Of a DNA stretch of 64,000 nucleotides, positions 1 through 53,531 are shown in pieces; positions within the stretch are counted from its first letter, which is position 1, and the number at the start of each line of letters is the position of its first letter. A program made the translations under genes and the position numbers. Source of the DNA: Rhynchopus sp. YZ270_cl-10 (taxonomy: Eukaryota); assembly GCA_964035575.1 (NCBI GenBank), contig OZ037836.1, positions 372,001-436,000 on the forward strand, in the 5' to 3' direction. Under the pieces are notes generated by a model, which made no database searches, was not told the DNA's origin, and saw only the letters and a program-made list of their open reading frames with translations.

Positions 1-974
1 GAGAGAAAGTTCTTCCCAATTTGCGTCACATTGTTCCACCTAGAAATACCCAGTGGGGTTAATGAGCTGCAGTTGGAGAGAAAGTCGTCCCCAACCCGCG
101 TCACATTCCTCCACCCAGACAAGTTAAGTGTTCGCAATGCGATGCAGTTGGAGAGAAAGTTCCTCCCAATTTGCGTCACATTGTTCCACCAAGAAATATC
201 CAGTGTGGTCAATGCGCTGCAGTTGGAGAGAAAGTAGTCATCAACCCGCGTCACATTGTGCCACCCAGAAACATGAAGTGCGGTCAATGAGATGCAGTAG
301 TAGAGAAAGTAGTCACCAACCCGCATCACATTGTTCCACCAAGAAATATCCAGTGTGGTCAGTGAGCTGCAGTTGGAGAGAAAGGACTCATCAACCCGAG
401 TCACATTGTTCCACCCAGATAAGTCAAGTGTTCGCAATCCGGTGCAGTTGGAGAGAAAGAAGGACTCAATGTGCGTGACGTTGCTCCACCCAGATAAATC
501 AGCAGTGTGCAATGGCCAGTACCCTTGCAGGAAACTCTCGCGTATTTTAGTTACACCTGACACACCACTGAGATCAAGTTCTTTGAACGTGCCACGTACT
601 TTCGAACGTGCCAAGAATTGATTTGGGATCTCAGTAACAACCTCCGCCTGCAGAAACAAATGAATCAGCTTGGGATCTTCCAGACCTTTGAATCTCTCTG
701 GCGTCAGCTCTCTCTCACCCAAGTCACGAAGAGCTGCAATGGCGTCGTCATTCCGAGACTTCGTCTTTTTCGTCAGCACAACTGTGTCCCCAGCACTCAG
801 CTGCGTGACGTAGTCTCCTTCGGCCAGCAGCTTCCCTCCGAAGCTCATGTCAAAGCCGTCTTCGCACAACTCTGCTGCAGACGCCACCTTCCGCCGTATG
901 TCCGCAGTTGTATCATCCACACCCACCTCGATTGTGTACTTCTCTCCGTCAAATCTCTCCACACATATTTCCAT
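1..974 (-). CDS. UBL-LRR family protein, copy 1 (3' end runs off the window)
   Basis: ATG at 974 (MEICVERFDGEKYTVEVG...); nearly identical to copy 2 over the UBL and first LRRs; 72-nt LRR periodicity continues to position 1. Confidence 0.85.
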   Translation of the reverse strand, partial: MEICVERFDGEKYTIEVGVDDTTADIRRKVASAAELCEDGFDMSFGGKLLAEGDYVTQLSAGDTVVLTKKTKSRNDDAIAALRDLGERELTPERFKGLEDPKLIHLFLQAEVVTEIPNQFLARSKVRGTFKELDLSGVSGVTKIRESFLQGYWPLHTADLSGWSNVTHIESFFLSNCTGLRTLDLSGWNNVTRVDESFLSNCSSLTTLDISWWNNVMRVGDYFLYYCISLTALHVSGWHNVTRVDDYFLSNCSALTTLDISWWNNVTQIGRNFLSNCIALRTLNLSGWRNVTRVGDDFLSNCSSLTPLGISRWNNVTQIGKNFL

Positions 975-1549
975 GGTTTCGTGTCTCTCTGTTTTGTGCA
1001 GGTATTTTGGGTGGGGCAAGAAGAAACAACAACAATCAGGTAGAGGATACGTAGGACAATGCCTTGGCATTTATGTAGGATAATATTGTAACGACTTTGT
1101 GGATGTGGCCGTATTTTTGCATGACAGACTTCCAGATTGAACTGGGAAGCAGAAACCCCAAACCCTCCCAGACCCAACGGTCTAACTAACGTTGCATTAC
1201 AGTGTGTGGGGGAGAAGTGAGGAACACGAGAACGTCTCGTGGTGCGCCAACACCGGGTGAAGTGGTACGGGAGTGCTATTTACGATGCCTCCGTTTTGGT
1301 TCGCTCGTATTAGTGTACGCGATTTTCTTTCCTTACTTCAAAAACTCTCTCTTTTTTTCCTGGAAGAAAACAGTTTTCGATAAAAAGCTCCTGCGTCGGT
1401 TTTCTCTTTCACAGGATGCAAAAATATAACAAAACAAAGTGTGCGTAAAAAAACATCACCTGTTTCCTTTATTGAGGAGGTGACGTGATGTACAATTCAT
1501 TCTCTGAACAGCGTAACGAGCAGCTGGCCTCTCGAAAGATGCACATGCC

Positions 1550-2809
1550 TCACATGCACACACATTTGCACTTGGTATCGTCCATCATGAGGCGACCGCT
1601 AGTTACATATTCTGACACAACTCTGCTCGATCCTGTGACGTTGATGCTGCTTGTAGGTATGTTGCATCCTTTTAGGGTGCCTGTCCCAACGTGCGACACA
1701 CTCGTCCACCCAGACAAGTCAAGTGTGGTCAATGCGCTGCAGTTGGACAGGCACGAACGTCCAATCTGCGAAACATTGCTCCACCCAGACAAGTCCAGTG
1801 TCGTTAACGAGGTGCAGCCGCCGAGGAAGTAGTCCTCAACCTGCGTCACATTGCTCCACCCAGATAAGTCCAGTGTTTGCAATGCGCTGCACTCGGAGAG
1901 GAAACAGATCCCAATCCGCGTCACATTGTTCCACCTAGAAATACCCAGTGTGGTCAATGAGCTGCAGTTGGAGAGAAAGTAGTCATCAACCCGCGTCGCA
2001 TTCCTCCACCCAGACAAGTTAAGTGTTTGCAATGCGATGCAGTTGGAGAGAAAGTTCCTCCCAATTTGCGTCACATTGTTCCACCCAGAAATATCCAGTG
2101 TGGTCAATGCGCTGCAGTTGGAGAGAAAGTAGTCATCAACCCGCGTCACATTGTGCCACCCAGAATTGTTCCACCAAGAAATATCCAGTGTCGTCAATGA
2201 GGTGCAGTTGGAGAGAAAGGACTCATCAACCCGAGTCACATTGTTCCACCCAGATAAGTCAAGTGTTCGCAATCCGGTGCAGTTGGAGAGAAAGAAGGAC
2301 TCAATGTGCGTGACGTTGCTCCACCCAGATAAATCAGCAGTGTGCAATGGCCAGTACCCTTGCAGGAAGCTCTCGCGTATTTTAGTTACACCTGACACAC
2401 CACTGAGATCAAGTTCTTTGAACGTGCCAAGTACTTTCGAACGTGCCAAGAATTTATTTGGGATCTCAGTAACAACCTCCGCCTGCAGAAACAAATGAAT
2501 CAGCTTGGGATCTTCCAGACCCTTGAACCTCTCTCGCGTCAGCCTTGTCTCACCCAAGTCACGAAGAGCTGCAATGGCGTCGTCCTTCTGCGACTTCGTC
2601 TTTTTCGTCAGCACAACTGTGTCCCCAGCACTCAGCTGCGTGATGTAGTCTCCTTCGGCCAGCAGCTTCCCTCCGAAGCTCATGTCAAAGCCGTCTTCGC
2701 ACAACTCTGCTGCAGACGCCACCTTCCGCCGTATGTCCGCAGTTGTATCATCCACACCCACCTCGACTGTGTACTTCTCTCCGTCAAATCTCTCCACACA
2801 TATTTCCAT
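1550..2809 (-). CDS. UBL-LRR-CaaX protein, copy 2 (419 aa, ~10 LRRs)
   Basis: Family start MEICV at 2809 (the ORF track extends upstream from a non-ATG codon); UBL-like N-terminus, LxTLDLSGWNNVTxVxxxFLxxC repeats, ends DDTKCKCVCM. Confidence 0.9.
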   Translation of the reverse strand: MEICVERFDGEKYTVEVGVDDTTADIRRKVASAAELCEDGFDMSFGGKLLAEGDYITQLSAGDTVVLTKKTKSQKDDAIAALRDLGETRLTRERFKGLEDPKLIHLFLQAEVVTEIPNKFLARSKVLGTFKELDLSGVSGVTKIRESFLQGYWPLHTADLSGWSNVTHIESFFLSNCTGLRTLDLSGWNNVTRVDESFLSNCTSLTTLDISWWNNSGWHNVTRVDDYFLSNCSALTTLDISGWNNVTQIGRNFLSNCIALQTLNLSGWRNATRVDDYFLSNCSSLTTLGISRWNNVTRIGICFLSECSALQTLDLSGWSNVTQVEDYFLGGCTSLTTLDLSGWSNVSQIGRSCLSNCSALTTLDLSGWTSVSHVGTGTLKGCNIPTSSINVTGSSRVVSEYVTSGRLMMDDTKCKCVCM

Positions 2810-3294: not shown

Positions 3295-4374
3295 TCACAT
3301 GCACACACATTTGCACTTGGTATCGTCCATCATGAGGCGACCGCTAGTCACATAGTCTGATAGAACTCTGCTCGATCCTGCAGTGTTGATGCTGCTTGTA
3401 GGTATGTTGCATCCTTTTAGGGTGCCTGTCCCAACGTGCGACACACTCGTCCACCCAGATAAGTCAAGTGTGGTCAATGCGCTGCAGTTGGACAGGCACG
3501 AACGTCCAATCTGCGAAACATTGCTCCACCCAGACAAGTCCAGTGTCGTTAACGAGGTGCAGCCGCCGAGGAAGTAGTCCTCAACCTGCGTCACATTGCT
3601 CCACCCAGATAAGTCCAGTGTTTGCAATGCGCTGCAGTTGGAGAGAAAGGAGTGCCCAACCTGCGTCACGTTCTTCCACCCAGAAATGTCCAATGCGGTC
3701 AATGAGGTGCAGTTGGCGAGGAAGCAGTACTTGATCAGCGTCACCTTGCTCCCATATAAGTCAAGTCTGGTCAATGCCCTGCAGTTGGCGAGGAAGTAGC
3801 TGCCAATGTGCGTCACATTGCTCCACCCAGAAAAGTCAACGGTTTGCAATGCGCTGCAGCTGTTCAGCAAGAAGGACTCAATAAGCGTCACATTGCTCCA
3901 CCCAGATAAATCAGCAGTGCGCAATGAGTTGCAGTTGGCAAGAACGCCACTGCAAAGCCTAGTCACACCTGACACACCACTGAGATCAAGTTCTTCGAAC
4001 GCGCTATGTGCCAAGAATCTCGAGGGTAGCTCAGTAACAACCTCCGCCTGCAGAAACAAATGAAACAGATTGGGATCTTCCAGACGTCTGAACCTCTCTG
4101 TGGTCAGGCTTGTCTCACCCAAGTCACGAAGAGCTGCAATGGCGTCGTCCTTCTGCGATTTCGTCTTCTTCGCCAGCACAACTGTGTCCCCAGCACTCAG
4201 CTGCGTGATGTAGTCTCCTTCGGCCAGCAGCTTCCCTCCGAAGCTCATGTCAAAGCCGTCTTCGCACAACTCTGCTGCAGTCGCCACCTTCCGCCGTATG
4301 TCCGCAGTTGTATCATCCACACCCACCTCGACTGTGTACTTCTCTCCGTCAAAGCTCTCCACACATATTTCCAT
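3295..4374 (-). CDS. UBL-LRR-CaaX protein, copy 3 (359 aa, ~8 LRRs)
   Basis: MEICVESFDGEKY at 4374; ends DDTKCKCVCM. Confidence 0.9.
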   Translation of the reverse strand: MEICVESFDGEKYTVEVGVDDTTADIRRKVATAAELCEDGFDMSFGGKLLAEGDYITQLSAGDTVVLAKKTKSQKDDAIAALRDLGETSLTTERFRRLEDPNLFHLFLQAEVVTELPSRFLAHSAFEELDLSGVSGVTRLCSGVLANCNSLRTADLSGWSNVTLIESFLLNSCSALQTVDFSGWSNVTHIGSYFLANCRALTRLDLYGSKVTLIKYCFLANCTSLTALDISGWKNVTQVGHSFLSNCSALQTLDLSGWSNVTQVEDYFLGGCTSLTTLDLSGWSNVSQIGRSCLSNCSALTTLDLSGWTSVSHVGTGTLKGCNIPTSSINTAGSSRVLSDYVTSGRLMMDDTKCKCVCM

Positions 4375-5181: not shown

Positions 5182-5345
5182 TCATTGTACGTGTCTCTGT
5201 CGTTTGCGGGCTTGCTCGGGGGATTTGTCTCTGCTGCGTGTCAGACGTGATTCAACTACAAGCTTGCTCAGCTTCTTGCTACTCCTTACTGCGTCTGACA
5301 CAACACTACTGCAGCCGGAAAGGTAAATACTGGCAAAGGCGAGAT
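5182..5345 (-). pseudogene. Orphan 3' fragment of LRR subfamily B (basic tail ...SPEQARKRQRHVQ)
   Basis: ASIYLSGCSSVVSDAVRSSKKLSKLVVESR... aligns with the C-terminus of the 30674-31396 LRR segment; the 3' flank (5085-5180) matches 30586-30670; no upstream LRRs or UBL. Confidence 0.75.
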
Positions 5346-6664: not shown

Positions 6665-7663
6665 TCACATACACACACATTGCTGTTGCATACTGCGCTT
6701 CATATCGCCAATGAGGTTACGGCTCTGTACATAATCTGACACAACACTGCTCGATCCGGTGATGTTGATGCTGCTTGTGGGTATTGTGCATTCTATTAGG
6801 AAGTTAGTCTCAATCCGCTGAACAGTCGTCAACCCAGATAAGTCAAGTGTTTTCAATGCGATGCAGTTGTCGAGGAAGTTCTTCCCAATTTGCGTCACAT
6901 TGTTCCACCCAGAAATATTCAGTGTGGTCAACGATCTGCAGTTGGAGAGAAAGAAATTATCAACCCGCGTCACATTACTCCACCCGGACAAGTCAAGGAT
7001 TTCCAATGCGGTGCAGTATTCGAGGAAGTAGTCTCCTATTTGCCTCACATTGTGCCACCCAGACAAGTCAAGGGTTCGCAATGCGTGGCATTTGGAGAGG
7101 AAACAGCTCCCAACATGCTTCATATTGCCCCACCCAGAAATAGAGTTGCAGTAGATGAGGAACGCGCTCCCAGTGCGTGCCACATTGCTCCACCCAGATA
7201 AATCAGCTGTGCGCAATGACATGCAGCCGCGCAGGAAAGCTCGATTTATTGCAGTCACACCTGGCACACCACTGAGATCAAGTGCTTCGAACGTGGCACC
7301 TTCCAAGAAGTGATCGGGGATCTCAGTAACAACCTCCGCCTGCAGAAACAAATGAATCAGCTTGGGATCTCTCAGACCTTTGAACTTCCATGTCGTCAGC
7401 CTTGTCTCACCCAAGTCACGAAGAGCTGCAATGGCGTCGTCCTTCTGCGACTTCGTCTTCGTCAGCACAACTGTGTCCCCAGCACTCAGCTGCGTGATGT
7501 AGTCTCCTTCGGCCAGCAGCTTCCCTCCGAAGCTCATGTCAAAGCCGTCTTCGCACAACTCTGCTGCAGTCGCCACCTTCCGCCGTATGTCCGCAGTTGT
7601 ATCATCCACACCCACCTCGACTGTGTACTTCTCTCCGTCAAAGCTCTTCACACATATTTCCAT
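6665..7663 (-). CDS. UBL-LRR-CaaX protein, copy 4 (332 aa, ~7 LRRs, one shortened)
   Basis: MEICVKSFDGEKY at 7663; ends MKRSMQQQCVCM. Confidence 0.9.
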   Translation of the reverse strand: MEICVKSFDGEKYTVEVGVDDTTADIRRKVATAAELCEDGFDMSFGGKLLAEGDYITQLSAGDTVVLTKTKSQKDDAIAALRDLGETRLTTWKFKGLRDPKLIHLFLQAEVVTEIPDHFLEGATFEALDLSGVPGVTAINRAFLRGCMSLRTADLSGWSNVARTGSAFLIYCNSISGWGNMKHVGSCFLSKCHALRTLDLSGWHNVRQIGDYFLEYCTALEILDLSGWSNVTRVDNFFLSNCRSLTTLNISGWNNVTQIGKNFLDNCIALKTLDLSGLTTVQRIETNFLIECTIPTSSINITGSSSVVSDYVQSRNLIGDMKRSMQQQCVCM

Positions 7664-9324: not shown

Positions 9325-10290
9325 TCACATGCACACACATTTGCACTTGGTATCGTCCATCATGAAGCGACCGCTAGTCACATAGTCTGACACAACACTG
9401 CTCGATCCTGTGACGTTGATGCTGCTTGTAGGTATGTTGCATCTTTTTAGGAAGTCTGTCCCAACGTGCGACACACTCGTCCACCCAGACAAGTCAAGTG
9501 TGGTCAATGCGCTGCAGTTGTAGAGAAAGAACTCACCAACCCGCGTCACGTTGTTCCACCCAGAAATGTCCAATGCGGTCAATGAGGTGCTGTCCAATGC
9601 GGTCAATGAGGTGCAGTTGGCGAGGAAGCAGTGCTTGATCAGCGTCACCTTGCTCCCAGATAAGTCAAGTCTGGTCAATGCCCTGCAGCCCTGGAGGAAG
9701 TAGCTGCCAATGTACGTGACATTGCTCCACCCAGATAAGTCAACGGTTTGCAATGCGCTGCAGCTGTTCAGCAAGAAGGACTCAATATGCGTCACATTGC
9801 TCCACCCAGATAAATCAGCAGTGTGCAATGCGTTGCAGTTGGCAAGAACGCCACTGCAAAGCCTAGTGACGCCTGGCACACCACTGAGATCAAGTTCTGA
9901 GAACCTGCCACATTGTAAGAAGTGATTGGGGATCTCGGTAACAACCTCCGCCTGCAGAAACAAATGAACCAGATTGGGATCTGTCAGACCTTCGAACCTC
10001 TCTGACGTCAGCTCTCTCTCACCCAAGTCACGAAGAGCTGCAATGGCGTCGTCCTTCGGCGACTTCGTCTTCACCAGCGTCTTTTTCGTCAGCACAACTG
10101 TGTCCCCAGCACTCAGCTGCGTGATGTAGTCTCCTTCGGCCAGCAGCTTCCCTCCGAAGCTCATGTCAAAGCCGTCTTCGCGCAACTCTGCTGCAGACGC
10201 CACCTTCCGCCGTATGTCCGCAGTTGTATCATCCACACCCACCTCGACTGTGTACTTCTCTCCGTCAAATCTCTCCACACATATTTCCAT
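9325..10290 (-). CDS. UBL-LRR-CaaX protein, copy 5 (321 aa, ~6 LRRs)
   Basis: ATG at 10290; internal in-frame 24-nt duplication (TSLTALD-STSLTALD); ends DDTKCKCVCM. Confidence 0.9.
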   Translation of the reverse strand: MEICVERFDGEKYTVEVGVDDTTADIRRKVASAAELREDGFDMSFGGKLLAEGDYITQLSAGDTVVLTKKTLVKTKSPKDDAIAALRDLGERELTSERFEGLTDPNLVHLFLQAEVVTEIPNHFLQCGRFSELDLSGVPGVTRLCSGVLANCNALHTADLSGWSNVTHIESFLLNSCSALQTVDLSGWSNVTYIGSYFLQGCRALTRLDLSGSKVTLIKHCFLANCTSLTALDSTSLTALDISGWNNVTRVGEFFLYNCSALTTLDLSGWTSVSHVGTDFLKRCNIPTSSINVTGSSSVVSDYVTSGRFMMDDTKCKCVCM

Positions 10291-10833: not shown

Positions 10834-10864
<31 letters not shown>

Positions 10865-14400: not shown

Positions 14401-14946
14401 CTTGGCCCCTTCTTTTGTATTGAAGGCGAATCCCTCGGTCTGCTCCCATTTTTGACACATGGTATATAACATCCTGCTGAAGTAGGGATCGCATCCTCTT
14501 CGGAAAAAGTGTAGTATTCTGTACGGTTCTGCGTCGTAAGAGGGGCAGCATTGGTGGGAACGAGGCTCGTTGCCCCCATTTTAATTTCGCTGAGGAGCGT
14601 CCAGAGTCGGGCAGCCTTCTCAAAGGAGCTTGGGAGGACAAGACCAATTTTTTGCGGGGTTTTTGTAATTTTTGAAGATGAAGCCTCCCCCGGTGAACTC
14701 TACTTCACATTCTCCAAGGGAAATAACACATTCAGCTCCATGAGAAGAGCGAGAAGAAAAGACCGCTATCACCATTGAATGCACCTCGTAGTACTTCGTT
14801 GTGCCAGCTTCTCGGATGACTAAGCGTTCGTACAACCTCAGAAAACGGCTAGATTTTATCAGTATGTAGGTCGTACCAACGACATAATGTTGCCCTTCCA
14901 TATCCCTCAGAGTGGGTGCTTCTCGTGTACTTCATTTGTTTTTATT

Positions 14947-15794
<848 letters not shown>

Positions 15795-17775: not shown

Positions 17776-18712
17776 TCACATGCACACACATTTGCACTTC
17801 ATATCGCCAATGAGGCTACGGCTCTTCACATATTCTGACACAACACTGCTCGATCCTGTAACGTTGATGCTGCTTGTAGGTATTTTGCATCCTTCCAGGA
17901 AGCCTTTCTTTACCTGCGTCACACTCGCCACCCAGACATCTCAAGGGTTTTCAATGAGCTGCAGTTGGAGAGGAACGAGTATACAATCAGCGTCACGTTC
18001 TTCCACCCAGACAAGTCCAGTGTGGTCAAGGCGCTGCAGTTGTAAAGGAAGTAGCTCCCAACGTGCATCACGTCGCTCCAGCCAGATAAGTTTAGTGTCG
18101 TCAGTGCCTTGCAGTTGGAGAGGAAGTGGTTCCCAACCCGCGTCACATTGCTCCACCCAGACAAGTCAACGGTTCGCAATGTGATACAGTAGGAGAGAAA
18201 GTAGTTTCCTACGGGCATCACATTGCTCCAGATAAATCAACAGTGCGCAATGAGGTGCAGTTGCGGAAGAAGCCGTCGTCTATTTCAGTCACACCTGACA
18301 CACCACTGAGATCAAGTTCTGAGAACGTGGCATCTGAAAAGAATTGATTTGGGATCTCAGTAATTACTTCCGCCTGCAGAAACAAATGAATCAGATTGGG
18401 ATCTGTCAGACGTTTGAACCTCTCTGGCGTCAGCTTTGTCTCACCCAAGTCACGAAGAGCTGCAATGGCGTCGTCCTTCTGCGACAGCGTCTTCGAATTT
18501 GTCTTCTTCGTCAGCACAACTGTGTCCCCAGCACTCAGCTGCGTGATGTGGTCTCCTTCGGCCAGCAGCTTCCCTCCGAAGCTCATGTCAAAGCCGTCTT
18601 CGCACAACTCTGCTGCAGACGCCACCTTCCGCCGTATGTCCGCAGTTGTATCATCCACACCCACCTCGACTGTGTACTTCTCTCCGTCAAAGCTCTCCAC
18701 ACATATTTCCAT
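17776..18712 (-). pseudogene. UBL-LRR-CaaX copy 6, frameshifted
   Basis: ATG at 18712; 4-nt loss near 18228 (ctcca-gataa) and 1-nt loss near 17927; remnant tail ...LIGDMKCKCVCM with TGA at 17776. Confidence 0.85.
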
Positions 18713-19280: not shown

Positions 19281-20378
19281 TCACATGCACACACATTTGA
19301 GCTGGGACCCTTCGCGGCTAGGCGGCTTCGTATCCCCCATAAGGCGACTGCTCTGCATGTACTCTGACACAGCAATGCTCGATCCTGCAGTGTTGATGCT
19401 GCTTGTAGGTATGTTGCATCCTTTTAGGGTGCCTGTCCCAATGTCCTTCGCATTCGTCCACCCAGACAAGTCAAGTGTGGTCAATGCGCTGCAGTTGGAC
19501 AGGCACGAACGTCCAATCTGCGTAACATTGCTCCACCCAGACAAGTCCAGTGTCGTTAACGAGGTGCAGCCGCCGAGGAAGGAGTGCCCAACCTGCGTCA
19601 CATTGCTCCACCCAGATAAGTCAACGGTTCGCAATGCGCTGCAGTCGGAGAGAAAGGAGTGCCCAACCTGCGTCACGTTCTTCCACCCAGAAATGTCCAG
19701 TGCGGTCAATGAGGTGCAGTTGGAGAGAAAGTTGTAGTCGATCAGCGTCACCTTGCCCCCAGATAAGTCAAGTCTGGTCAATGCCCTGCAGCCCTGGAGG
19801 AAGTAGCTGCCAATGTGCGTCACATTGTTCCACCCAGATAAGTCAACGGTTTGCAATGCGCTGCAGCTGTTCAGCAAGAAGGACTCAATATGCGTCACAT
19901 TGCTCCACCCAGATAAATCAGCAGTGCGCAATGAGTTGCAGTTGGCAAGAACGCCACTGCAAAGCCTAGTGACGCCTGGCACACCACTGAGATCAAGTTC
20001 CTTGAACCTGCTCTGTGCCAAGAATCTCGAGGGTAGCTCAGCAACAACCTCCGCCTGCAGAAACAAATGAATCAGCTTGGGATCTGTCAGATCTTTGAAC
20101 CTCTCTTTTGTGAGCCTTGTCTCACCCAAGTCACGAAGAGCTGCAATGGCGTCGTCCTTCTGCGACTTCGTCTTCGTCAGCACAACTGTGTCCCCAGCAC
20201 TCAGCTGCGTGATGTCGTCTCCTTCGGCCAGCAGCTTCCCTCCGAAGCTCACGTCAAAGCCGTCTTCGCACAACTCTGCTGCAGACGCCACCTTCCGCCG
20301 TATGTCCGCAGTTGTATCATCCACACCCACATCGACTGTGTACTTCTCTCCGTCAAAGCTCTTCACACATATTTCCAT
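19281..20378 (-). CDS. UBL-LRR-CaaX protein, copy 7 (365 aa, ~8 LRRs)
   Basis: ATG at 20378; ends KPPSREGSQLKCVCM. Confidence 0.9.
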   Translation of the reverse strand: MEICVKSFDGEKYTVDVGVDDTTADIRRKVASAAELCEDGFDVSFGGKLLAEGDDITQLSAGDTVVLTKTKSQKDDAIAALRDLGETRLTKERFKDLTDPKLIHLFLQAEVVAELPSRFLAQSRFKELDLSGVPGVTRLCSGVLANCNSLRTADLSGWSNVTHIESFLLNSCSALQTVDLSGWNNVTHIGSYFLQGCRALTRLDLSGGKVTLIDYNFLSNCTSLTALDISGWKNVTQVGHSFLSDCSALRTVDLSGWSNVTQVGHSFLGGCTSLTTLDLSGWSNVTQIGRSCLSNCSALTTLDLSGWTNAKDIGTGTLKGCNIPTSSINTAGSSIAVSEYMQSSRLMGDTKPPSREGSQLKCVCM

Positions 20379-34220: not shown

Positions 34221-34436
34221 CTTCAGCGTTTTTGTGAGGATGATTGTGTCACCAGCACTCAGCTGCGTCATGTCCGCTCCTTCCCCCAGCGCTTCGTCTC
34301 CGAAACTCATGCAAAAACTGTCTTCAGGCAACCCCATTGCAGACGCCATCTTCCGCCGCAAGCCCTCCACTGTGCCATCTGCACCCACCTCGACTGTGTG
34401 CTGATTTGCTTTGAAATCCTCGAAGTGCACGTCCAT
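31752..34436 (-). CDS. Chimeric ORF: host UBL domain fused in frame to truncated retrotransposon protein (894 aa)
   Basis: MDVHF...SAGDTIILTKTLK|VEKETGTQGLAYADD...; open frame seen directly, expression unknown. Confidence 0.5.
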   Translation of the reverse strand: MDVHFEDFKANQHTVEVGADGTVEGLRRKMASAMGLPEDSFCMSFGDEALGEGADMTQLSAGDTIILTKTLKVEKETGTQGLAYADDTNLLTKTLDQLRAGVAFTGHFADLTGQRVHAGKSTWQSNRPDEEETVQMNGADLTRVEKSECLGATVQARQAGTPTLPTKLEGTIDACGPLAGKVGCLPLTQGEKAGIMQAAVMSKSVYGITVQDPPGKYVNSLATAVEKGVHGVNKMNRRSVPVMLNVFEKGHLLDPSVAFDYRRIMTWAAMIRKSDEICSLVEKCRLRAKAKQAKTGGPIGLIARALSRLAWSWIDTTKVKTHDGSIVDVKTVSLGRLGHFVRERMFFIRLSRTKTTAKVNGKGRANLKGIEAGVDKEKTLALTRSKSLTDYEAGTLRHIVADGAITGVRLARARIRDSAICVHCEAGVDENHKHLWWECEAWSSIRAEYPLLLDIDRTTWPNCLAICGMCTPDTPLECARVADLQKMMVRILIARSKWSRPEAANPRLQEDRYPWTWAPELDTTTQHANSLVDYTPLKRRWPYGRALLLAFASWLGGLQWSDEAGREVSHMELLIDFEVATGMDIRPGDKTGRIAPKLKQPRAGTGEEDNNGGEDDGSGEDDDDDDVVPVALAHREMAKTTTFGHMLASLRTFSESSLHPGKVKVTHVLASFGANAITGIDRRPIFAGGEETLKALRALYDAGVAYRLQRSSEGMSEVELRGGDRARGTWMGEYSAETAYPSTEVRGRRALPFIQRAEQETSAHARYRHHEHVRPGDAPVKAPEVAVPIFQFAICVLHRKTKCDACSKNAQADLMHCCFAHHSNDDGLPIRHEACTKHRLSRCGNCVQEKSTLEHCCRRHHDTSKGRQTTLGGFFKKKQTKQKDGHSRGGDGLM

Positions 34437-36925: not shown

Positions 36926-36957
<32 letters not shown>

Positions 36958-37869: not shown

Positions 37870-39307
37870 CTCCTACACATTCGTCCTGAATACTGCGCTT
37901 GACATCACCGAGCAGGTTACGGCTCTTCACATATTCTGACACAACACTGCTCGATCCGGTGACGTTGATGCTGCTTGTAGGTATTTTGCATCCTTTTAGG
38001 AAGCCTTTCCCAATGCTGCACACTCGTCCACCCAGATATGTTAAGTGTCTTCAACGCTATATTAAACTTGAAAAACGTGATCCACCCCCGCAAAAAGAAA
38101 AACCAGCAAAAGGGAAGGATGGCACCACGGTGTGCCAGAGAGTGGCTTGATCCCATTTGCTGACTTATATCCAACAAAGAAGCGACACCTAAGTGAACAG
38201 GGGCCGTATACCACCGCTGGTGGCCTAGGTTAGTATATAAGCCAGTTCAAGGTCCGCACTCTGGCAGCGTCAAAAGAAATAAACAACAATAAAACCACCA
38301 GTCATTCCAACCCTCCAGGACCCTCCAGTATCATGTGCCCGGGTTTGCAAAAGAGCAATGCAACCATCCCACGCGTGGCCTTCGTTCACTCAAAAAAGAG
38401 ATTATATCCGGGGACGCCAGGGCAAAAATGCCGGGGGGCTGCCACCTCACGTTTTTGTCCCCTTAAGTGTCTTCAACGCTCTGCATTTGGCGAGGAAGTA
38501 GTACTCAACCTGCGTCACATTGCCCCACCCAGATAAGTCAAGGGTTTGTAATGCACTGCAGCTGTAGAGGAACCTGTGCTCAACTTGCATTACATTGTTC
38601 CACCCTGACAAGTCAAGTGTCGTCAATGAGGTGCAGTTGCAGAGGAAGCAGTTCTCGATGTGCGTCACATTGTTCCACCCAGACATGTCAAGTGTGGTCA
38701 ATGAGGTGCAGTTGGCGAGGAAACCATGTCCAACCTTTCTCAGGTTGTTCCATCCAGATACGTCAACGGTTGTCAACGTCCAGCAGTCGTAGAGGAAGTA
38801 GTCCTCAACCTGCGTCACATTGCTCCACCCAGATAAATCAACAGTGTGCAATGAGCTGAAGTCTTCCAGAAAGGCGAGGAAAAGCTCCCTGATTACAGTC
38901 ACACCTGACACACCACTGAGAGCAATTTCTTTGAACGTGCCACATCTCAGGCAGTCGGAGGGTATCTCAGGAACAACTTCTGCCCGCAGAAACAAATGAA
39001 ATAGCTTGGGATCTTCCAGACGTTCGAACCTCCCTGCAGTGATGTCGGTATCACCCAAGTCACGAAGAGCTGCAATGGCGTCGTCCTTCTGCGACTTCGT
39101 CTTCGTCAGCACAACTGTGTCCCCAGCACTCAGCTGCGTCGTGTCGTCTCCTTCGGCCAGCAGCTTCCCTCCGAGGCTCATGTCAAAGCCGTCTTCGCAC
39201 AACTCTGCTGCAGACGCCACCTTCCGCCGTATGTCCGCAGTTGTATCATCCACATCCACCTCGACTGTGTACTTCTCTCCGTCAAAGCTCTTCACACATA
39301 TTTCCAT
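37870..39307 (-). pseudogene. UBL-LRR copy 9, disrupted by a 404-bp insertion; distal part frameshifted and CaaX decayed
   Basis: ATG at 39307; frame leaves the family sequence at 38462; remainder at 37870-38058 resembles the copy 12 tail (VKSRNLLGDVKRSIQDECV). Confidence 0.85.
38059..38462. mobile_element. SINE-like non-coding insertion (404 bp)
   Basis: Perfect 18-bp TSD ttaagtgtcttcaacgct at 38041-38058 and 38463-38480; no TIRs and no convincing ORF. Confidence 0.8.
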
Positions 39308-40854: not shown

Positions 40855-42106
40855 TCACATGCACACACATTTGCACTCGTCATCGTATACGAGGCTACCG
40901 CCATAGGCATGCACACATTCTGACACAACACTGCTCGATCCTGTAACGTTGATGCTACGTATTTTGCATCCTTTTAGGAAGTCTGGCCCAATGCGCCGAA
41001 CAGTCGTCAACCCAGATAAGTCAAGTGTTTGCAATGCGCTGCAGTTGGAGAGAAAGTAGTCTCCCAGTTGCGTCACATTGTTCCACCCAGAAATATCCAG
41101 TGTGGTCAATGAGGTGCACCTGGAGAGAAAGTACTCACCAACCCGCGTCACATTGTTCCACCCAGAAATATCTAGTGTGCTCAATGACCTGCACCTGGAG
41201 AGAAAGAACTCACCAACCCGCGTCACGTTGTTCCACCCAGACAAGTCAAGGCTTTGCAATGCAGTGCAGTAGGAGAGAAACGCTGGCTCAATGCGTGCCA
41301 CATTGTTCCACCCAGACAAGTTAAGTGTTCGCAATCCGGTGCAGTTGGCGAGGAAGGAGTGCCCTATGTGGGTCACATTGTTCCAACCAGAAATATCAAG
41401 TGTGGTCAATGAGGGGCAGTCGGAGAAAGCCCACATCCAACCGCATCACATTGTTCCACCCAGATAAGTCAAGTGATTTCAACGCGCTGCATTTGGAGAG
41501 GAAGTACTTATCAACCTGAGTCACATTGCTCCACCCAGACAAGTCAAGTGTTCGCAATGAGGTGCAGGAGGAGAGAAAGAACGCTTCAACATGCGTGACA
41601 TTGCTCCACCCAGATAAATCAGCAGTGCGCAGTGAGCGGCAGAGTTCGAGAAAGGAGCAACCTACTTGCGTCACACCTGGCACACCACTGAGATCAAGTT
41701 CTGAGAACGTGCCACTTTGCAAGAAGTAATGGTGAATATAAGTAACAACCTCTGCCTGCAGAAACAAATGAATCAGCTTGGGATGTCTCAGACGTTCAAA
41801 CCTCTCTTCCGTCAGCTCTCTCTCACCCAAGTCACGAAGAGCTGCAATGGCGTCGTCCTTCTGCGACAGCGTCTGCGAATTCGTCTTCACCAGCGTCTTC
41901 TTCGTCAGCACAACTGTGTCCCCAGCACTCAGCTGCGTGATGTCGTCTCCTTCAGCCAGAACCTTCCCTCCGAAGCTCATGTCAAAGCCGTCTTCGCACA
42001 ACTCTGCTGCAGACGCCACCTTCCGCCGTATGTCCGCAGTTGTATCATCCACACCCACCTCGACTGTGTACTTCTCTCCGTCAAAGCTCTTCACACATAT
42101 TTCCAT
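40855..42106 (-). pseudogene. UBL-LRR-CaaX copy 10, single frameshift near 41430
   Basis: ORFs 41396-42106 and 40855-41436 together give a full gene ending YDDECKCVCM; a sequencing error cannot be excluded. Confidence 0.75.
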
Positions 42107-42274
42107 GGTTTTGTGTCTCTCTGTTTTGTGCAAGGTGTTTTGGGGTAAGAAGAAGAATCAAGCACAGGACACGTTGCTTTTTGAATGTTTCCCCCACCCC
42201 CACCTCACACATTTTTGCAAATGAAACACATCCCCTTCTCCCTTCCCCATCTATTGTCCGTTGCATCGCACAGT

Positions 42275-42395
42275 ACCTTCCTCCGAAGCTCATGTCAAAG
42301 CCGTCTTCGCGCAACTCTGCTGCAGACGCCACCTTCCGCCGTATGTCCGCAGTTGTGTCATCCACACCCACATCGACTGTGTACTTCTCTCCGTC
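42275..42395 (-). pseudogene. Isolated UBL-domain fragment
   Basis: DGEKYTVDVGVDDTTADIRRKVASAAELREDGFDMSFGG with non-family sequence on both sides. Confidence 0.8.
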
Positions 42396-42461
42396 TCAAC
42401 TCCTAATGCATATCTCACGTGCGGATACCACCTTGTATCGATTTTAGTCAAGGCTGTTAAC

Positions 42462-45440: not shown

Positions 45441-46973
45441 TCACATGCACACACATTTGCACTTGGTATCGTCCACGAGGCTACCGCTATAGTCATGCAC
45501 ATATTCTGACACAACACTGCTTGATCCTGTAACGTTGATGCTGCTTGTACGTATGTTGCATCCTTTTAGGAAGCCTTTCTCAATGTGCTGCACACTCGTC
45601 CACCCAGATACGTTAAGTGTTTTCAATGCGCTGCAGTTAGAGAGAAAGTAGTCCCCCAACTGTGTCACATTGTTCCACCCAGAAATATCCAGTGTGGTCA
45701 ATGAGGCGCAGTTGGAAAAAAAGTTTCTGTCAATGTGAGTAACACTTCTCCATCCAGACAAGTCAAGGCTTCGCAATGAGGTGCAGTTGGAGAAGAAAGA
45801 CTTCCCAACCCGCGTCACATTGTTCCACCCAGAAAGGTCAAGTGTGGTCAATGAGGTGCAGTTGTGGAGGAAGCCCTCATCAACCTGCGTCACATCGTTC
45901 CACCCAGACAACTCAAGTGTTCGTAATGCGATGCAGGAGGAGAGAAAGTAGTCGCCCAGTTGCGTCACATTGTTCCACCCAGAAATATCTAGTGTGGTCA
46001 ATGAGGTGCAGCCGGAGAGAAAGAACTCATCAACCCGCGTCACATTGTTCCACCCAGAGAAGTCAAGGACTTGCAATGCAGTGCAGGAGGAGAGAAACAA
46101 TCGCTCAATGTGTGCCACGTTGTTCCACCCAGACAAGTCAAGTGTTCGCAATCCGGTGCAGTTGGAGAGAAAGTCGTGCCCTACGTGCGTCGCATTGTTC
46201 CACCCAGAAATATCCAGTGTGGTCAATGAGGTGCACTTGGAGAGAAAGTACTCATCAACCCGCGTCACATTCCTCCACCCAGAGAAGTCGAGAGTTCGTA
46301 ATGAGGTGCAGGAGGAGAGAAAGGCGCTCCCTACGTGCGTCACATTGTTCCACCCGGAAATATCTAGTGTGGTCAATGAGGTGCAGTTGTAGAGGAAGTT
46401 GTTGTCAACCCGCGTCACATTGTTCCACCCAGACAAGTCAAGTGTTCGCAAGGCGCTCATCCCGTCGAGGAAGAAGGACTCAACATGCGTGACATTGCTC
46501 CACCCAGATAAATCAGCAGTGTGCAATGCGTTGCAGAGTTTGAGAAAGAATGCACCTACTGCAGTCACACCTGGCACACCACTGAGATCAAGTTCTGAGA
46601 ACGTACCACCTTGTAAGAAGAAATGGGGTATCTCAGTAACAACCTCTGCCTGCAGAAACAAATGAACCAGCTTGGGATCTGTCAGATCCTCGAACTCATC
46701 TGACGTCAGCCTTGTCACACCCAAGTCACGAAGAGCTGCAATGGCGTCGTCCTTCTGCGACTTCGTCTTCGTCAGCACAACTGTGTCCCCAGCACTCAGC
46801 TGCGTCGCGTCGTCTCCTTCGGCCAGCAGCTTCTCTCCGAAGCTCATGTCAAAGCCGTCTTCGCGCAACTCTGCTGCAGTCGCCACCTTCCGCCGTATGT
46901 CCGCAGTTGTATCATCCACACCCACCTCGACTGTGTACTTCTCTCCGTCAAAGCTCTTCACACATATTTCCAT
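45441..46973 (-). CDS. UBL-LRR-CaaX protein, copy 11 (510 aa, ~14 LRRs, longest)
   Basis: ATG at 46973; ends DDTKCKCVCM. Confidence 0.92.
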   Translation of the reverse strand: MEICVKSFDGEKYTVEVGVDDTTADIRRKVATAAELREDGFDMSFGEKLLAEGDDATQLSAGDTVVLTKTKSQKDDAIAALRDLGVTRLTSDEFEDLTDPKLVHLFLQAEVVTEIPHFFLQGGTFSELDLSGVPGVTAVGAFFLKLCNALHTADLSGWSNVTHVESFFLDGMSALRTLDLSGWNNVTRVDNNFLYNCTSLTTLDISGWNNVTHVGSAFLSSCTSLRTLDFSGWRNVTRVDEYFLSKCTSLTTLDISGWNNATHVGHDFLSNCTGLRTLDLSGWNNVAHIERLFLSSCTALQVLDFSGWNNVTRVDEFFLSGCTSLTTLDISGWNNVTQLGDYFLSSCIALRTLELSGWNDVTQVDEGFLHNCTSLTTLDLSGWNNVTRVGKSFFSNCTSLRSLDLSGWRSVTHIDRNFFSNCASLTTLDISGWNNVTQLGDYFLSNCSALKTLNVSGWTSVQHIEKGFLKGCNIRTSSINVTGSSSVVSEYVHDYSGSLVDDTKCKCVCM

Positions 46974-49101: not shown

Positions 49102-49133
<32 letters not shown>

Positions 49134-49640
49134 GTCCATCCCCGAGATCGCCCCTGCGTCCTTCGTCGCCTGACGCTGCGAGTCGTTGAAGTACGCAGGC
49201 ACAGTCACAACGCTCTTCTTCACCTCCTTCCCAAGGAACTGCTCCGCCGTCTCCTTCATCTTCACAAGGATCATCGCAGAGATCTCCTCAGGCCTGAACG
49301 TCTTCGTCGTCCCCATGAACGACACCTCAATCAGCGGCTTCCCGTCCTCCTTCGCCACAACCTTGAACGGCCAGTGCTTCATGTCGCTCTGCACAGACGA
49401 GTCCTCCAGCTTGCGCCCGATCAGACGCTTCGCGTCGAACACCGTGTTCGTCGGGTTCATCGCCACCTGGTTCTTCGCCGCATCTCCGATCAGACGCTCG
49501 CTGTCTGCGAACGCCACGTACGACGGGGTCGTCCTGTTCCCCTGGTTGTTCGCAATGATCTCCACACGCTCGTTCTGCCACACTCCCACACACGAGTAGG
49601 TCGTTCCCAAGTCAATACCGATGGCTCCGTCGTAGGACAT
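47796..49640 (-). CDS. HSP70: Atypical HSP70, copy 2 (614 aa)
   Basis: Protein identical to copy 1; ATG at 49640; TGA stop and a different 3' flank. Confidence 0.97.
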
Positions 49641-50026: not shown

Positions 50027-50887
50027 TCACATGCACACACATCCGTCCTGAATACTGCGCTTCACATCGCCCAGGAGGTTACGGCTCTTCACATATTCTG
50101 ACACAACACTGCTCGATCCTTCAACGTTGATGCTGCTTGTAGGTATTTTGCATCCTTTTAGGAAGCCTTTCCCAATGTGCTGCACATTCCTCCACCCAGA
50201 CAAGTCAAGGGTTTGCAATGCGCTGCAGTTGAGGACGAAGCACTCCTCAACGTGCATCAGATTGCTCCACCCAGATAAGTCAAGGGTGCGCAATACGGGG
50301 CAGTGGGCGATGAAGTAGTGCTCAATGTGCGTCACATTGTTCCACCCAGACAAGTCAACAGTTTGCAATGCGTTGCAGTAGTGGAGGAAGCCGGGACCAA
50401 TCCGTGTCACATTGTTCCACCCAGATAAATCAGCAGTGCGCAATAACTTGCAACCGAGAAGGAAGTTTTGTCGTACTTCAGTCACACCTGGTACATCACT
50501 CAGATTAAGAGCTTCGAATGTGACACGTGACAAGAAGAAAGAGCGGGTCTCAGTAACAACCTCCGCCTGCAGAAACAAACGGATCAGCTTGGGATCTCTC
50601 AGAAATCTTAGCCTCTCTGACGTCAGGATTGTCTCACCCAAGTCACGAAGAGCTGCAATGGTGTTGTACTTCTGTGAGTTATTCGTCAGCACAACTGTGT
50701 CCCCAGCACTCAGCTGCGTGATGTCGTCTCCTTCGGCCAGAACCTTCCCACCGAAGCTCATGTCAAAGCCGTCTTCGCACAACTCTGCTGCAGACGCCAC
50801 CTTCCGCCGTATGTCCGTAGTTGTATCATCCACACCCACCTCGACTGTGTACTTCTCTCCGTCAAAGCTCTTCACACATATTTCCAT
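50027..50887 (-). CDS. UBL-LRR-CaaX protein, copy 12 (286 aa, ~5 LRRs, shortest)
   Basis: ATG at 50887; ends VKRSIQDGCVCM. Confidence 0.9.
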   Translation of the reverse strand: MEICVKSFDGEKYTVEVGVDDTTTDIRRKVASAAELCEDGFDMSFGGKVLAEGDDITQLSAGDTVVLTNNSQKYNTIAALRDLGETILTSERLRFLRDPKLIRLFLQAEVVTETRSFFLSRVTFEALNLSDVPGVTEVRQNFLLGCKLLRTADLSGWNNVTRIGPGFLHYCNALQTVDLSGWNNVTHIEHYFIAHCPVLRTLDLSGWSNLMHVEECFVLNCSALQTLDLSGWRNVQHIGKGFLKGCKIPTSSINVEGSSSVVSEYVKSRNLLGDVKRSIQDGCVCM

Positions 50888-52520
50888 GGTTTTGTGGTTT
50901 TGTGAAGGTGTTTTCAATTGGGGGTAAGAGGACGCAAGAGACAACAAACAGTTAGGGAGAGGTCTTATGCTAATAAAAATGATCATCCAGATGTGGTGAA
51001 ACGCCATAAACTCCACAACCCCTACAAAGATACTCCGCAAGCCATGCATAGTGGGGCAAGACAAAGCAACCAAAAGAGGAAGAGGACAACTTGCAAGTGT
51101 GCAGAAGAGTGTTTGGAAGCTAAGGGTACAAAGGCACTGCGTGAATTGCACCCACGTAGGGGCGAACAACCTTCGCGACCACACAAGACCCACAGTGAGA
51201 GGTCTTGAAACAAGTTACAAAGGGGAGAGAGGTCTTTTGTTTTGTTTGAAAGCTTCGTTGTATTAGTGTGGACACCCGAGGATGTGCTCCACCATGTGTT
51301 CCTTTTGAACTTGGTAACTATCGTTTTTGTTGGCTTTTATGTAAGTTTTGTATTTTCATGACCTTTCAGTTTCTCTATCCTCTGCGATATGAAGCGCAAA
51401 CACGCCGTTTTCAATTTGATTCGCAGACCGATACTGACTCACGAAGTTGCTGTGTCAAAAAACACCTTCCTCTGCGAGGCGGGATGCCACAGCGACAACG
51501 TCTATCACTCATGCGCCTATGAGTCGCTCAATGGCGTCATGGCTTTTATCATGACTACAGGGGTCCAACCCTGCACATTGCTCTCACAACACAAAATACA
51601 AATGCGGGATAGCATCTATCACTCATGTGCCTGTGAGTCGAGGGTTCACCCGTGCCCAGCAGACGTTGAGTATTGCTTATAAATATTATCACAAAATATG
51701 GAAAAAATACAAACTGCCTTGCCTAAAGTACAGAAATGAGGTGAGTGCACAATAAAGGAGGAGGGTGGTAAATTTGTTTCAATAACTTTCAAATCAAAGA
51801 AGAGAAAGCTCAAGGACGTCAATAGATGCATTCAAATGTTTGTTAACCTTTTGCAAAACTGTGACAAGAAAAATGCCCGAGAGATTTGTTTCTCTTTGCT
51901 TGTTGCTCAAAAGACTGGGGGGGGGGGGGGGGAAATACTGGTTGTTTGTTGTTCGCTTCCACACCGCTTATTGCCCCCCACCTTTGTTTCAGAATCAAGT
52001 CTTTTGGCTGCGCCTGCAAAACGCTCGTCTCGTGGATGTGGACTGTTTTGTTTTTATATTGATGTGTTTGCCGGCAAAACAAACTCGCGAACGAAAAAAG
52101 AGATTTTTATGTGAAGTGTGCAGTAAGGGGGGGAGAATAAAACATGACGAAAAAACCTCCACTATCATTTCGCAAGCTTTCATTCTCCTCACATTGTATT
52201 TCCCAACCCCACAACCACGATAAAGCGTGAAGACAATAAATAAAAGAAAGAAGTAATTTTAGGTTTTGTGGGTTCTTCTTCTGACGGTTGAACAACTTAT
52301 TTTATCTTTATAATAATATTACCATCTTTATTGCAAAAGATAACAATTCCTCTCGAAATAGCTCCAGATTGAACTGAGAGAAAGAAGAAACCCCAAACCC
52401 TCCCAGACCAAACGGTCTAACATGTTGTATTGATATAGTGTGGGGGATAAGTGAGGAGCACAAGAATCGTCTTCGCGTATACTAAAAGATTTTCTCATAT
52501 ATGTCACACAACAAGGGGCC

Positions 52521-53531
52521 TCACATGCACACACATTTGCACTTGGTATCGTCCACGAGGCTCCCGCCATAGTCATGCACACATTCTGACACAACACTGC
52601 TCGATCCTGTAACGTTGATGTTGCTTGTACGTATTTTGCATGCATACAGGAAGCTTGGCCCAATGTGCTGAACGGTCGTCCACCCAGATAAGTCAAGTGT
52701 TTTCAATGCGCTGCATTTGGAGAGGAAACACTTATCCATCTCCCTCACATTGTTCCACCCAGATAAGTCAAGGGTTCGCAATGCAGTGCATTTGCAGAGA
52801 AAGCGGTACCCTATATGCGTCACATTGTTCCACCCAGAAATATCCAGTGTGGTCAATGAGGTGCAGTCGTAGAGAAAGTTGTTGCCAACCCGCGTCACAT
52901 TGTGCCACCCAGAGATATCCAGTGTGGTCAATGAGGTGCAGTTGTAGAGAAAGTAGTCCCCAACCCGCGTCACATTGCTCCACCCAGACAAGTCAAGTGT
53001 TTTCAATGCGGTGCAGTTGGAGAGAAATTCGTACCCGATTTGCGTCACATTGTTCCACCCAGAAATATCCAGTGTGGTCAATGAGGTGCACTTGGAGAGA
53101 AAGTTGGACCCACCTACCGCAGTCACACCTGGCACACCACTGAGATCAAGTTCTGAGAACGTGCCACCTTGTAAGAAGTAATGGGGTATCTCAGTAACAA
53201 CCTCCGCCTGCAGAAACAAATGAATCAGCTTGGGATCTGTCAGACCTCTGAACCTCTCTGACGTCAGCTCTCTCTCACCAAAGTCACGAAGAGCTGCAAT
53301 GGCGTCGTCCTTCTGCGACTTCGTCTTCGTCAGCACAACTGTGTCCCCAGCACTCAGCTTCGTCGCGTCGTCTCCTGCGGCCAGCAGCTTCCCTCCGAAG
53401 CTCATGTCAAAGCCGTCTTCGCGCAACTCTGCTGCAGTCGCCACCTTCCGCCGTATGTCCGCAGTTGTATCATCCACACCCACCTCGACTGTGTACTTCT
53501 CTCCGTCAAAGCTCTCCACACATATTTCCAT
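52521..53531 (-). CDS. UBL-LRR-CaaX protein, copy 13 (336 aa, ~7 LRRs)
   Basis: ATG-initiated ORF; ends DDTKCKCVCM. Confidence 0.92.
   Translation of the reverse strand: MEICVESFDGEKYTVEVGVDDTTADIRRKVATAAELREDGFDMSFGGKLLAAGDDATKLSAGDTVVLTKTKSQKDDAIAALRDFGERELTSERFRGLTDPKLIHLFLQAEVVTEIPHYFLQGGTFSELDLSGVPGVTAVGGSNFLSKCTSLTTLDISGWNNVTQIGYEFLSNCTALKTLDLSGWSNVTRVGDYFLYNCTSLTTLDISGWHNVTRVGNNFLYDCTSLTTLDISGWNNVTHIGYRFLCKCTALRTLDLSGWNNVREMDKCFLSKCSALKTLDLSGWTTVQHIGPSFLYACKIRTSNINVTGSSSVVSECVHDYGGSLVDDTKCKCVCM

What the first reader, a model, noticed from the sequence alone, without database searches (positions are those of the whole stretch)
1..53531. Candidate diversified intracellular receptor system: ubiquitin-like + variable LRR + farnesylation box array
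Seen: about 13 paralogues with an almost invariant UBL-like domain (no terminal GG, so probably not conjugated), 5-14 interchangeable 72-nt LRR modules, an invariant CVCM terminus, no signal peptide, and frequent pseudogenes. Established: CaaX boxes ending in M are farnesyltransferase substrates; integral UBL domains engage proteasome receptors, p97 or E3 complexes; Entamoeba has CaaX-ended BspA-like LRR proteins. Inference: a birth-and-death repertoire of membrane-tethered cytosolic recognition proteins that couples variable binding to the ubiquitin-proteasome system, possibly for defence against or control of endosymbionts, viruses or prey. I do not recognise this tri-domain architecture as a described family.
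Basis: partly seen in the sequence, partly recalled or inferred. Interest (0 to 1): 0.85.

Follow-up and report, generated by a model that had tools for sequence, protein, structure and literature searches.

The report
Diversifying LRR binders with swappable addresses
A marine single-celled predator (a diplonemid) carries a large gene family whose repeats diversify fast at four positions each and whose tails are predicted to send the proteins to membranes or the nucleus, likely a repertoire of intracellular binders against microbes or viruses.

Summary
The array is real: 13 ubiquitin-like (UBL) + LRR paralogues, 10 intact and ending in CVCM, plus a broken 14th of another class. The repeat is 75 nt (25 aa), not 72. 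The UBL is predicted beta-grasp (Z 12.8 to ubiquitin); the repeats are BspA/TpLRR type (Z 20.9). The host groups with Diplonema. Relatives: 304 hits; the 120 listed lie on 32 contigs, apparently one assembly.

New here: repeat positions 17/18/21/22 diversify (omega about 4) on a purified scaffold; neighbours swap module blocks; the cassette carries different tails (several CaaX boxes, a bipartite NLS-like tail, an acidic tail); some relatives add B-box/coiled-coil.

Expression is untested.

Verdict: an undescribed variant of protist BspA families, likely variable intracellular binders in a biotic conflict; ligand and downstream step unknown.

The parts
1..974 (-). CVCM-class gene, cut by window edge (8 repeats visible)
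   Evidence: N-terminus equals P0016, 410 aa, ends CVCM
1550..2809 (-). Intact CVCM-class gene, 419 aa, 10 repeats; chimera of 974-like and 4374-like blocks
   Evidence: Pfam LRR_5 and ubiquitin
3295..4374 (-). Intact CVCM-class gene, 359 aa, 8 repeats
5182..5330 (-). Orphan tail fragment of the NLS class
6665..7663 (-). Intact CVCM-class gene, 332 aa, 6 repeats plus a partial one
9325..10290 (-). Intact CVCM-class gene, 321 aa, 6 repeats plus a partial one
17776..18712 (-). CVCM-class gene, frameshifted in the second repeat (about 18225)
   Evidence: lesion not checked against reads
19281..20378 (-). Intact CVCM-class gene, 365 aa, 8 repeats
23589..24605 (-). Intact CVCM-class gene, 338 aa, 7 repeats
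30674..34436 (-). NLS-class member (divergent UBL, PL-type repeats, KRSR...K-stop-QR tail), broken by an insertion, a frameshift near 31380 and a stop in the tail
   Evidence: intact relatives P0073, P0092
31684..34220 (-). 5'-truncated retroelement at the UBL/helical-cap junction, 19-nt target-site duplication
   Evidence: its ORF ends like P0356, which has an RT domain
37904..39307 (-). CVCM-class gene broken by a 404-nt insertion (38059-38462, 18-nt duplication), a frameshift and loss of the tail
40855..42106 (-). CVCM-class gene, frameshifted near 41430
   Evidence: contigs of runs X2 and X4 span 41234-41549 with no difference
42267..42416 (-). Degenerate UBL fragment with a stop
45441..46973 (-). 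Intact CVCM-class gene, 510 aa, 14 repeats
50027..50887 (-). Intact CVCM-class gene, 286 aa, 5 repeats
52521..53531 (-). Intact CVCM-class gene, 336 aa, 7 repeats (P0001, the modelled copy): UBL 1-69, three helices 73-108, TpLRR, cap helix 312-324, low-confidence tail
63909..63998 (-). Start of the helical cap joined in frame to an unrelated ORF; any UBL would lie beyond the window

Best explanation
This is part of a large diplonemid gene family with a predicted ubiquitin-fold domain, 25-residue BspA-type repeats that diversify at four positions each, and exchangeable tails predicted to target membranes or the nucleus; it likely works as a repertoire of intracellular binders of foreign proteins. 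Shown: architecture, tandem birth-and-death, block exchange between neighbours, purifying selection on the repeat scaffold, diversifying selection at positions 17/18/21/22, and retention of CaaX ends. Inferred: positions 17/18/21/22 stack into one binding strip along the solenoid, and repeat number and order set its specificity. Inferred from CaaX and NLS rules: farnesylation (with an upstream Cys or basic residues as second signal) holds the main class on cytosolic membrane faces, while other classes go to the nucleus. Most speculative: targets come from endosymbionts, viruses or engulfed prey, and the acidic UBL docks a shared partner through a surface other than the Ile44 patch, so it is not a proteasome shuttle.
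For: Fold: pLDDT 92; UBL Z 12.8, rmsd 1.2 over 69 residues; the six best LRR matches are TpLRR-type bacterial proteins, top Z 20.9, rmsd 2.6 over 191. Selection: the four most variable positions in 265 repeats from non-window proteins are 17/18/21/22; in 69 window modules they give omega 3.96 (p 1e-6) against 0.17 for the core; 0 of 200 neutral-plus-conversion simulations reach the observed ratio (1.90; max 1.32, or 1.63 for the top four sites). Tail: 77 of 79 proteins with the CVCM-type cap pattern end in C-x-x-x across 19 tail lengths; CSVS, CSCS, CVLQ, CAIS ends occur in other subfamilies. Tails among 117: CVCM-type 74, CSVS/CSCS 6, NLS-like 15, acidic 4, other 18. UBL fold conserved beyond neutral family-wide. 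B-box/coiled-coil relatives. Diplonemids host secretion-rich cytoplasmic endosymbionts (10.1101/719211, passages).
Against: No expression evidence could be obtained. No ligand, prenylation or localisation was tested. UBL omega is not below 1 (2.07, p 0.15; 1.12, p 0.69) and its silent sites are unusually uniform, which could mean constrained silent sites and so inflated omega elsewhere. Fast horizontal evolution of repeats is reported as universal (PMC5120217, abstract), so positive selection alone does not mean immunity. No signalling or catalytic domain in the window genes. An Entamoeba CaaX-BspA protein is reported on the cell surface (PMC2843621, passages). Many relatives are truncated or interrupted.
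Confidence: 0.5

Rival explanations
1. One reading: membrane-tethered substrate receptors whose UBL delivers bound targets to the proteasome, p97 or an E3, like FBXL2 (F-box-LRR-CaaX).
For: Ubiquitin is the closest fold; layout parallels FBXL2 (PDB 6o60 among LRR hits); B-box/coiled-coil relatives resemble RING-less TRIMs.
Against: Ile44, Arg42 and Val70 equivalents are replaced and the domain is acidic; no F-box, UBA or RING in Pfam scans; the three helices align with internalin-type LRR caps (rows 22, 33, 34).
Confidence: 0.17
2. Surface adhesins or prey/host sensors like Entamoeba CaaX-BspA proteins, exported without a signal peptide; or effectors delivered into prey or host cells that use the target's prenylation and nuclear import.
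For: Entamoeba CaaX-BspA reported on the surface (PMC2843621, PMC5349171, passages); TpLRR structural neighbours are cell-surface proteins; CaaX or NLS plus a repeat domain is a known effector layout (recalled: Legionella AnkB).
Against: No hydrophobic segment; prenyl anchors face the cytosol (established); NLS-like and CaaX tails alternate on one cassette, simplest for an intracellular protein.
Confidence: 0.13
3. Self/non-self or intragenomic conflict system (mating or allorecognition, toxin-antidote, or restriction of the cell's own retroelements) rather than defence against microbes.
For: Same selection signature expected; nuclear class; retroelements repeatedly sit in these genes.
Against: No linked toxin or partner gene in the window; dispersal over 32 contigs is unlike a single recognition locus.
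Confidence: 0.1
4. Largely silent, recombination-driven expansion with relaxed selection; most copies do nothing.
For: UBL, linker and C-cap omega near 1; many broken copies; D. papillatum has an untranscribed repeated ORF array (PMC10161547, passage).
Against: Repeat positions not fixed by my search pattern (11, 12, 23) have omega 0.14-0.23; in-frame tails of 19 lengths; UBL columns conserved beyond neutral.
Confidence: 0.1

Closest known systems
Entamoeba CaaX-ended BspA-like proteins; Trichomonas TvBspA family (911 members, none with CaaX) (PMC2843621, PMC5349171, passages)
   Same: TpLRR/LRR_5 repeats, large lineage-specific protist expansion, pseudogenes; CaaX without signal peptide in Entamoeba
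   Different: N-terminal UBL ('ubiquitin' has 0 occurrences in PMC2843621); regular 25-aa SGW-type repeat; NLS-like and B-box classes; free-living euglenozoan host
FBXL2/FBXL20 (F-box-LRR-CaaX; PDB 6o60 seen; function recalled), Ralstonia GALA (abstract PMC2244805), Legionella AnkB (recalled)
   Same: Constant N-terminal module + repeat binder + prenylation box
   Different: No F-box; UBL instead; TpLRR class; large diversifying family rather than a few genes
UBL + DUF285/BspA-repeat clusters of the ESM Atlas
   Same: Ubiquitin-family domain joined to BspA-like repeats, in two clusters of 50 and 55 members
   Different: Feature scores 0.81-0.84 (leads only); DUF285 not LRR_5; tails and hosts unknown; homology not shown
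MUB/UBL3 membrane-anchored ubiquitin folds and Arabidopsis At2g30105 UBL-LRR (both recalled, no call)
   Same: UBL + CaaX, or UBL + LRR
   Different: Neither has all three parts or forms a variable repertoire
Plant NLR and agnathan VLR repertoires (recalled)
   Same: Modular LRRs, hypervariable positions on a conserved scaffold, tandem birth-and-death
   Different: No NB-ARC/NACHT; variable sites lie after the second short strand, while the LxxLxL strand positions 3/5/7 are conserved (omega 0.42); no somatic assembly shown

Membership tests
BspA/TpLRR proteins | LRR_5 (PF13306) above gathering score | tested here: met
   82-141 bits vs 27.7 in 4 of 4 window genes
BspA/TpLRR proteins | TpLRR solenoid fold | tested here: met
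   6mlx Z 20.9, rmsd 2.6, 191 aligned; canonical LRRs Z 14.9 or less; predicted model
BspA/TpLRR proteins | Cell-surface exposure | not testable with these tools
   No hydrophobic segment; needs localisation
Ubiquitin-like modifiers (type I) | C-terminal di-glycine after the beta-grasp | tested here: not met
   UBL runs into TKTK and the helical cap
Proteasome shuttle UBL proteins (Rad23/Dsk2 type) | Beta-grasp domain | tested here: met
   Z 12.8 ubiquitin, 12.2 Dsk2 UBL
Proteasome shuttle UBL proteins (Rad23/Dsk2 type) | Leu8/Ile44/Val70-type hydrophobic patch | tested here: not met
   Position 44 S69 G13 R4 H3 T2 of 92; 42 mostly D; 70-equivalent mostly T; 8 mostly F; numbering from the alignment
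Proteasome shuttle UBL proteins (Rad23/Dsk2 type) | UBA or other ubiquitin-binding domain | tested here: not met
   None in Pfam at E up to 1
F-box/LRR substrate receptors (FBXL2 type) | F-box motif | tested here: not met
   No Pfam hit on the helical segment alone or whole proteins; segment not folded alone
CaaX prenylation substrates | Cys at -4 in a soluble protein with a flexible tail | tested here: met
   11 of 11 window tails; 77 of 79 with the cap pattern; tail pLDDT under 50
CaaX prenylation substrates | Actual farnesylation and membrane binding | not testable with these tools
   Needs labelling; Cys at a2 is unusual
TRIM proteins | B-box + coiled coil | tested here: inconclusive
   Absent from window genes; in relatives P0362 passes the B-box cutoff (24.5 vs 24.1), P0297 and P0307 score below it; coiled coil judged by eye
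TRIM proteins | RING domain | tested here: not met
   No RING hit in 3 of 3 B-box relatives
Variable immune-receptor repertoires (NLR/VLR-like, by function) | Site-specific diversifying selection on a conserved LRR scaffold | tested here: met
Variable immune-receptor repertoires (NLR/VLR-like, by function) | Recognition of foreign ligands and a defence output | not testable with these tools
   No ligand or expression data

The most novel reading that the evidence does not exclude
A germline-encoded, recombining immune-receptor repertoire in a free-living protist: one UBL-TpLRR cassette shuffles its binding strip by module exchange and is posted to membranes, nucleus or cytosol by exchangeable tails, with TRIM-like members as assembly platforms, to police endosymbionts and viruses through a non-canonical ubiquitin-fold interaction.
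Probability: 0.25. Interest if true: 0.85.

Novelty: new variant of a known kind. Interest (0 to 1): 0.62.

Why it matters
How single-celled eukaryotes recognise intracellular bacteria and viruses is largely open, and diplonemids are abundant marine predators with cytoplasmic endosymbionts. This family gives concrete candidates: four variable positions per repeat, natural chimeras, and tails that predict different compartments. If the binder reading holds, it is an independent origin of an LRR receptor repertoire, built from a repeat class known mainly from surface proteins. If not, it is still a clean case of concerted evolution (UBL) and diversification (LRR) inside one gene.

Tried and rejected
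Expression: no RNA holder listed, which is no evidence either way; the four runs laid cover intergenic DNA at even depth and look genomic. Whether the weak holders (organisms C-F) carry the family stays open. No whole genome is held, so copy number comes from protein searches only. Viral or prokaryotic origin of the N-terminus: one IMG/VR match was a phage tail-region gene sharing a short peptide, rejected; none in metagenome contigs, GTDB genomes or phages; these word-based scans find close relatives only. Longer fused forms: none by the word search, but the profile search found B-box forms of 604-784 aa, so one search was insensitive. UBL-RT and UBL-OTU 'fusions' (P0356, P0360) are read as mobile-element insertions, not architectures (inference). 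72-nt period rejected. 'UBL invariant because of strong constraint' rejected for the window. First null simulation was over-diverged and was rerun (tree pS 0.19-0.25 vs 0.15 observed). Direction of evolution (B-box gain or loss, first tail) is unresolved: 18 of 37 branches open. Curvature of the model could not be measured (no coordinates); the paper I recall on flipped TpLRR curvature is not held. No complex was predicted: no defensible partner was available. Three look-ups of earlier findings returned nothing. Hsp70 as a functional partner was rejected: only the 2-kb Hsp70 cassette is triplicated.
Full report
OBSERVATION. Thirteen paralogue starts lie on the minus strand between 974 and 53531. 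Nine are complete in the window and end in CVCM; the one at 974 runs off the edge and matches a 410-aa CVCM protein (P0016). Three are broken: 18712 and 42106 by frameshifts, 39307 by a 404-nt insertion with an 18-nt duplication plus further damage. The 42106 lesion is spanned without differences by contigs of two runs, which may be the source data. The repeat period is 75 nt; intact genes hold 5-14 repeats. A 14th member of a different class (30674-34436) is split by a 2.5-kb retroelement with a 19-nt duplication.

HOST. The Hsp70 cluster that represents the window's copy (P0130, 99% identical) falls in a 100/99 clade with Diplonema papillatum and unnamed sequences, apart from kinetoplastids and euglenids (35 rows chosen from 120). 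So the host is a diplonemid; the species was not sought. Same-strand intronless genes with an AG 16 nt upstream of the ATG in 12 of 13 starts fit trans-splicing (inference).

STRUCTURE. AlphaFold2 on a 62-sequence alignment gives mean pLDDT 92: strands and helix of a beta-grasp (1-69), three helices (73-108), the solenoid, a cap helix (312-324) and a low-confidence tail. The N-terminus matches ubiquitin best (Z 12.8, rmsd 1.2). The repeats match TpLRR-type proteins (6mlx Z 20.9, rmsd 2.6; five more at Z 15.9-19.8) better than canonical LRRs (Z 14.9 or less); Pfam LRR_5 passes its cutoff. The three helices align with internalin-type caps in several rows, and no F-box was found.

FAMILY. A search with P0001 gave 304 hits; the 120 listed are all unnamed, on 32 contig lengths by my count, 49 on the window's own. 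A profile search of the N-terminus gave 529 hits, 150 listed, many of them polyubiquitins; the family-like ones extend below 50% identity. About 200 family-like sequences were held, fragments included. Of 20 looked up, 19 are unnamed ENA records, 9 of them on contig lengths already seen, so one assembly is likely but not proven. Outside it: a related UBL without LRR in a Rhynchopus euleeides transcriptome (P0374, 41% over 66 columns) and a UBL + cap fragment on a 976-nt contig (P0361). Tails among 117 listed proteins: CVCM-type 74, CSVS/CSCS 6, NLS-like (KRSR, then a spacer, then mostly a second basic cluster) 15, acidic 4, other or truncated 18; tails track subfamilies and need 8 changes on a 55-row tree. 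The NLS label rests on the recalled bipartite consensus. Three relatives add two B-box-like fingers and a probable coiled coil before the UBL.

EVOLUTION OF THE REPEATS. Gene 2809 joins a 974-like front to a 4374-like end: unequal crossover. In 265 unique repeats from CVCM proteins outside the window (11 window proteins dropped) the most variable positions are 17, 18, 21, 22 (3.1-3.7 bits). In the 69 regular 25-aa window modules (first, last, 24-aa and irregular modules dropped; broken genes kept) these give per-site ratios 2.3-3.2 and a joint omega of 3.96 (p 1e-6); the core gives 0.17. My pattern fixes some core positions, but unfixed ones (11, 12, 23) give 0.14-0.23. Neutral variable sites with gene conversion never reached the observed ratio in 200 runs. 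Caveats: one tree for recombining modules, my own codon model, possible constraint on silent sites, and fast repeat evolution being general (PMC5120217, abstract). Exposed positions of the LxxLxL strand (3, 5, 7) are conserved (omega 0.42). I recall that TpLRR solenoids have flipped curvature, which would put the variable sites on the concave face; this was not checked.

THE UBL. On a spanning tree of 13 copies the UBL shows 6 silent and 32 replacement changes; silent divergence is 0.011 against 0.10 in the helices and 0.17 in the repeats. Omega is not different from 1. Its uniformity therefore reflects recent homogenisation, not shown constraint. Family-wide it is constrained: 19 of 57 columns have at most two states among 92 sequences, against at most 10 in 60 neutral simulations at matched identity (some columns were used as anchors). 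The Ile44 patch used by proteasome receptors (established knowledge) is gone and the domain is acidic.

THE TAIL. 77 of 79 proteins with the CVCM-type cap pattern end in C-x-x-x over 19 tail lengths (24-52 aa), so indels stay in frame. The CVCM codons are near-identical in 11 window copies, so homogenisation contributes; different boxes in other subfamilies (CSVS, CSCS, CVLQ, CAIS) argue for selection on prenylation. 29 of 80 have a second Cys at -6 and most have net basic tails.

MECHANISM. Most likely (0.5): variable intracellular binders, each posted by its tail, in a conflict with endosymbionts, viruses or prey; the UBL docks an unknown shared partner or acts as a structural or decoy unit. 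Diplonemid endosymbionts encode secretion systems and LRR proteins (10.1101/719211, passages), a plausible pressure; whether this host has symbionts is unknown. Rivals: ubiquitin-system receptor (0.17), surface or delivered protein (0.13), self/non-self or intragenomic conflict (0.10), mostly silent expansion (0.10).

KNOWN AND NEW. It belongs to the BspA/TpLRR class and resembles Entamoeba CaaX-BspA proteins (PMC2843621, PMC5349171, PMC8017271; passages). Searches for UBL + LRR + CaaX + protist, BspA + ubiquitin-like + protist + expansion and D. papillatum + genome + leucine-rich repeat returned 0 papers. DUF285 + ubiquitin returned 10 (listing; passages of two read; neither describes this architecture). 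The D. papillatum genome paper has no LRR, BspA or ubiquitin in its main text and no BspA in 7 supplements. The library lacks most subscription papers, and preprint supplements were closed. The Atlas shows UBL + DUF285 clusters, so the two-domain pairing is probably not unique.

VERDICT. Real feature; new variant of a known kind; interest 0.62.

Noticed in passing
window 35620-37464, 47796-49640, 59704-61548 (-): Three near-identical Hsp70 genes (0-2 nt differences) lacking the C-terminal EEVD, on a long branch, interleaved with the array as a 2-kb cassette.
   Followed up: partly
window 31684-34220 and 38059-38462; P0356, P0360, P0293, P0298, P0075, P0246, P0271, P0294: Mobile elements recur at the same spots in different paralogues (UBL/cap junction, cap, repeat position 4-5), suggesting site-preferring retroposons. 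The 2.5-kb insertion starts GT and, with its duplication, ends AG, so it could be spliced; diplonemid introns with direct repeats are recalled.
   Followed up: partly
window 15795-16540 and 22323-23060: 750-nt inverted repeat (96%) bracketing two family genes, next to an 860-nt (TTG)n tract at 14936-15794; possibly a composite transposon.
   Followed up: no
window 62274-63998 (-): Family cap start fused in frame to a 574-aa ORF with (PELK)n repeats and a weak TET-associated glycosyltransferase hit (E 0.12).
   Followed up: partly
P0297, P0307, P0362 (other contigs): B-box-B-box-coiled-coil-UBL-TpLRR proteins, RING-less TRIM-like; P0307 ends in FG-rich repeats, P0362 in a hydrophobic segment.
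   Followed up: partly
window 55009-58161 (-): 1050-aa protein with signal-like start, repeated cysteine-containing domains, a Pro/Thr stalk and a transmembrane segment; no Pfam hit.
   Followed up: no
window 25286-26935 and 28393-29307 (-): Type II membrane-like ORFs; the first has a weak FUT8 glycosyltransferase hit (E 0.1).
   Followed up: no
window 12333-14410 and 43141-43628: 49/97-nt and 10-nt satellite tracts between family genes.
   Followed up: no
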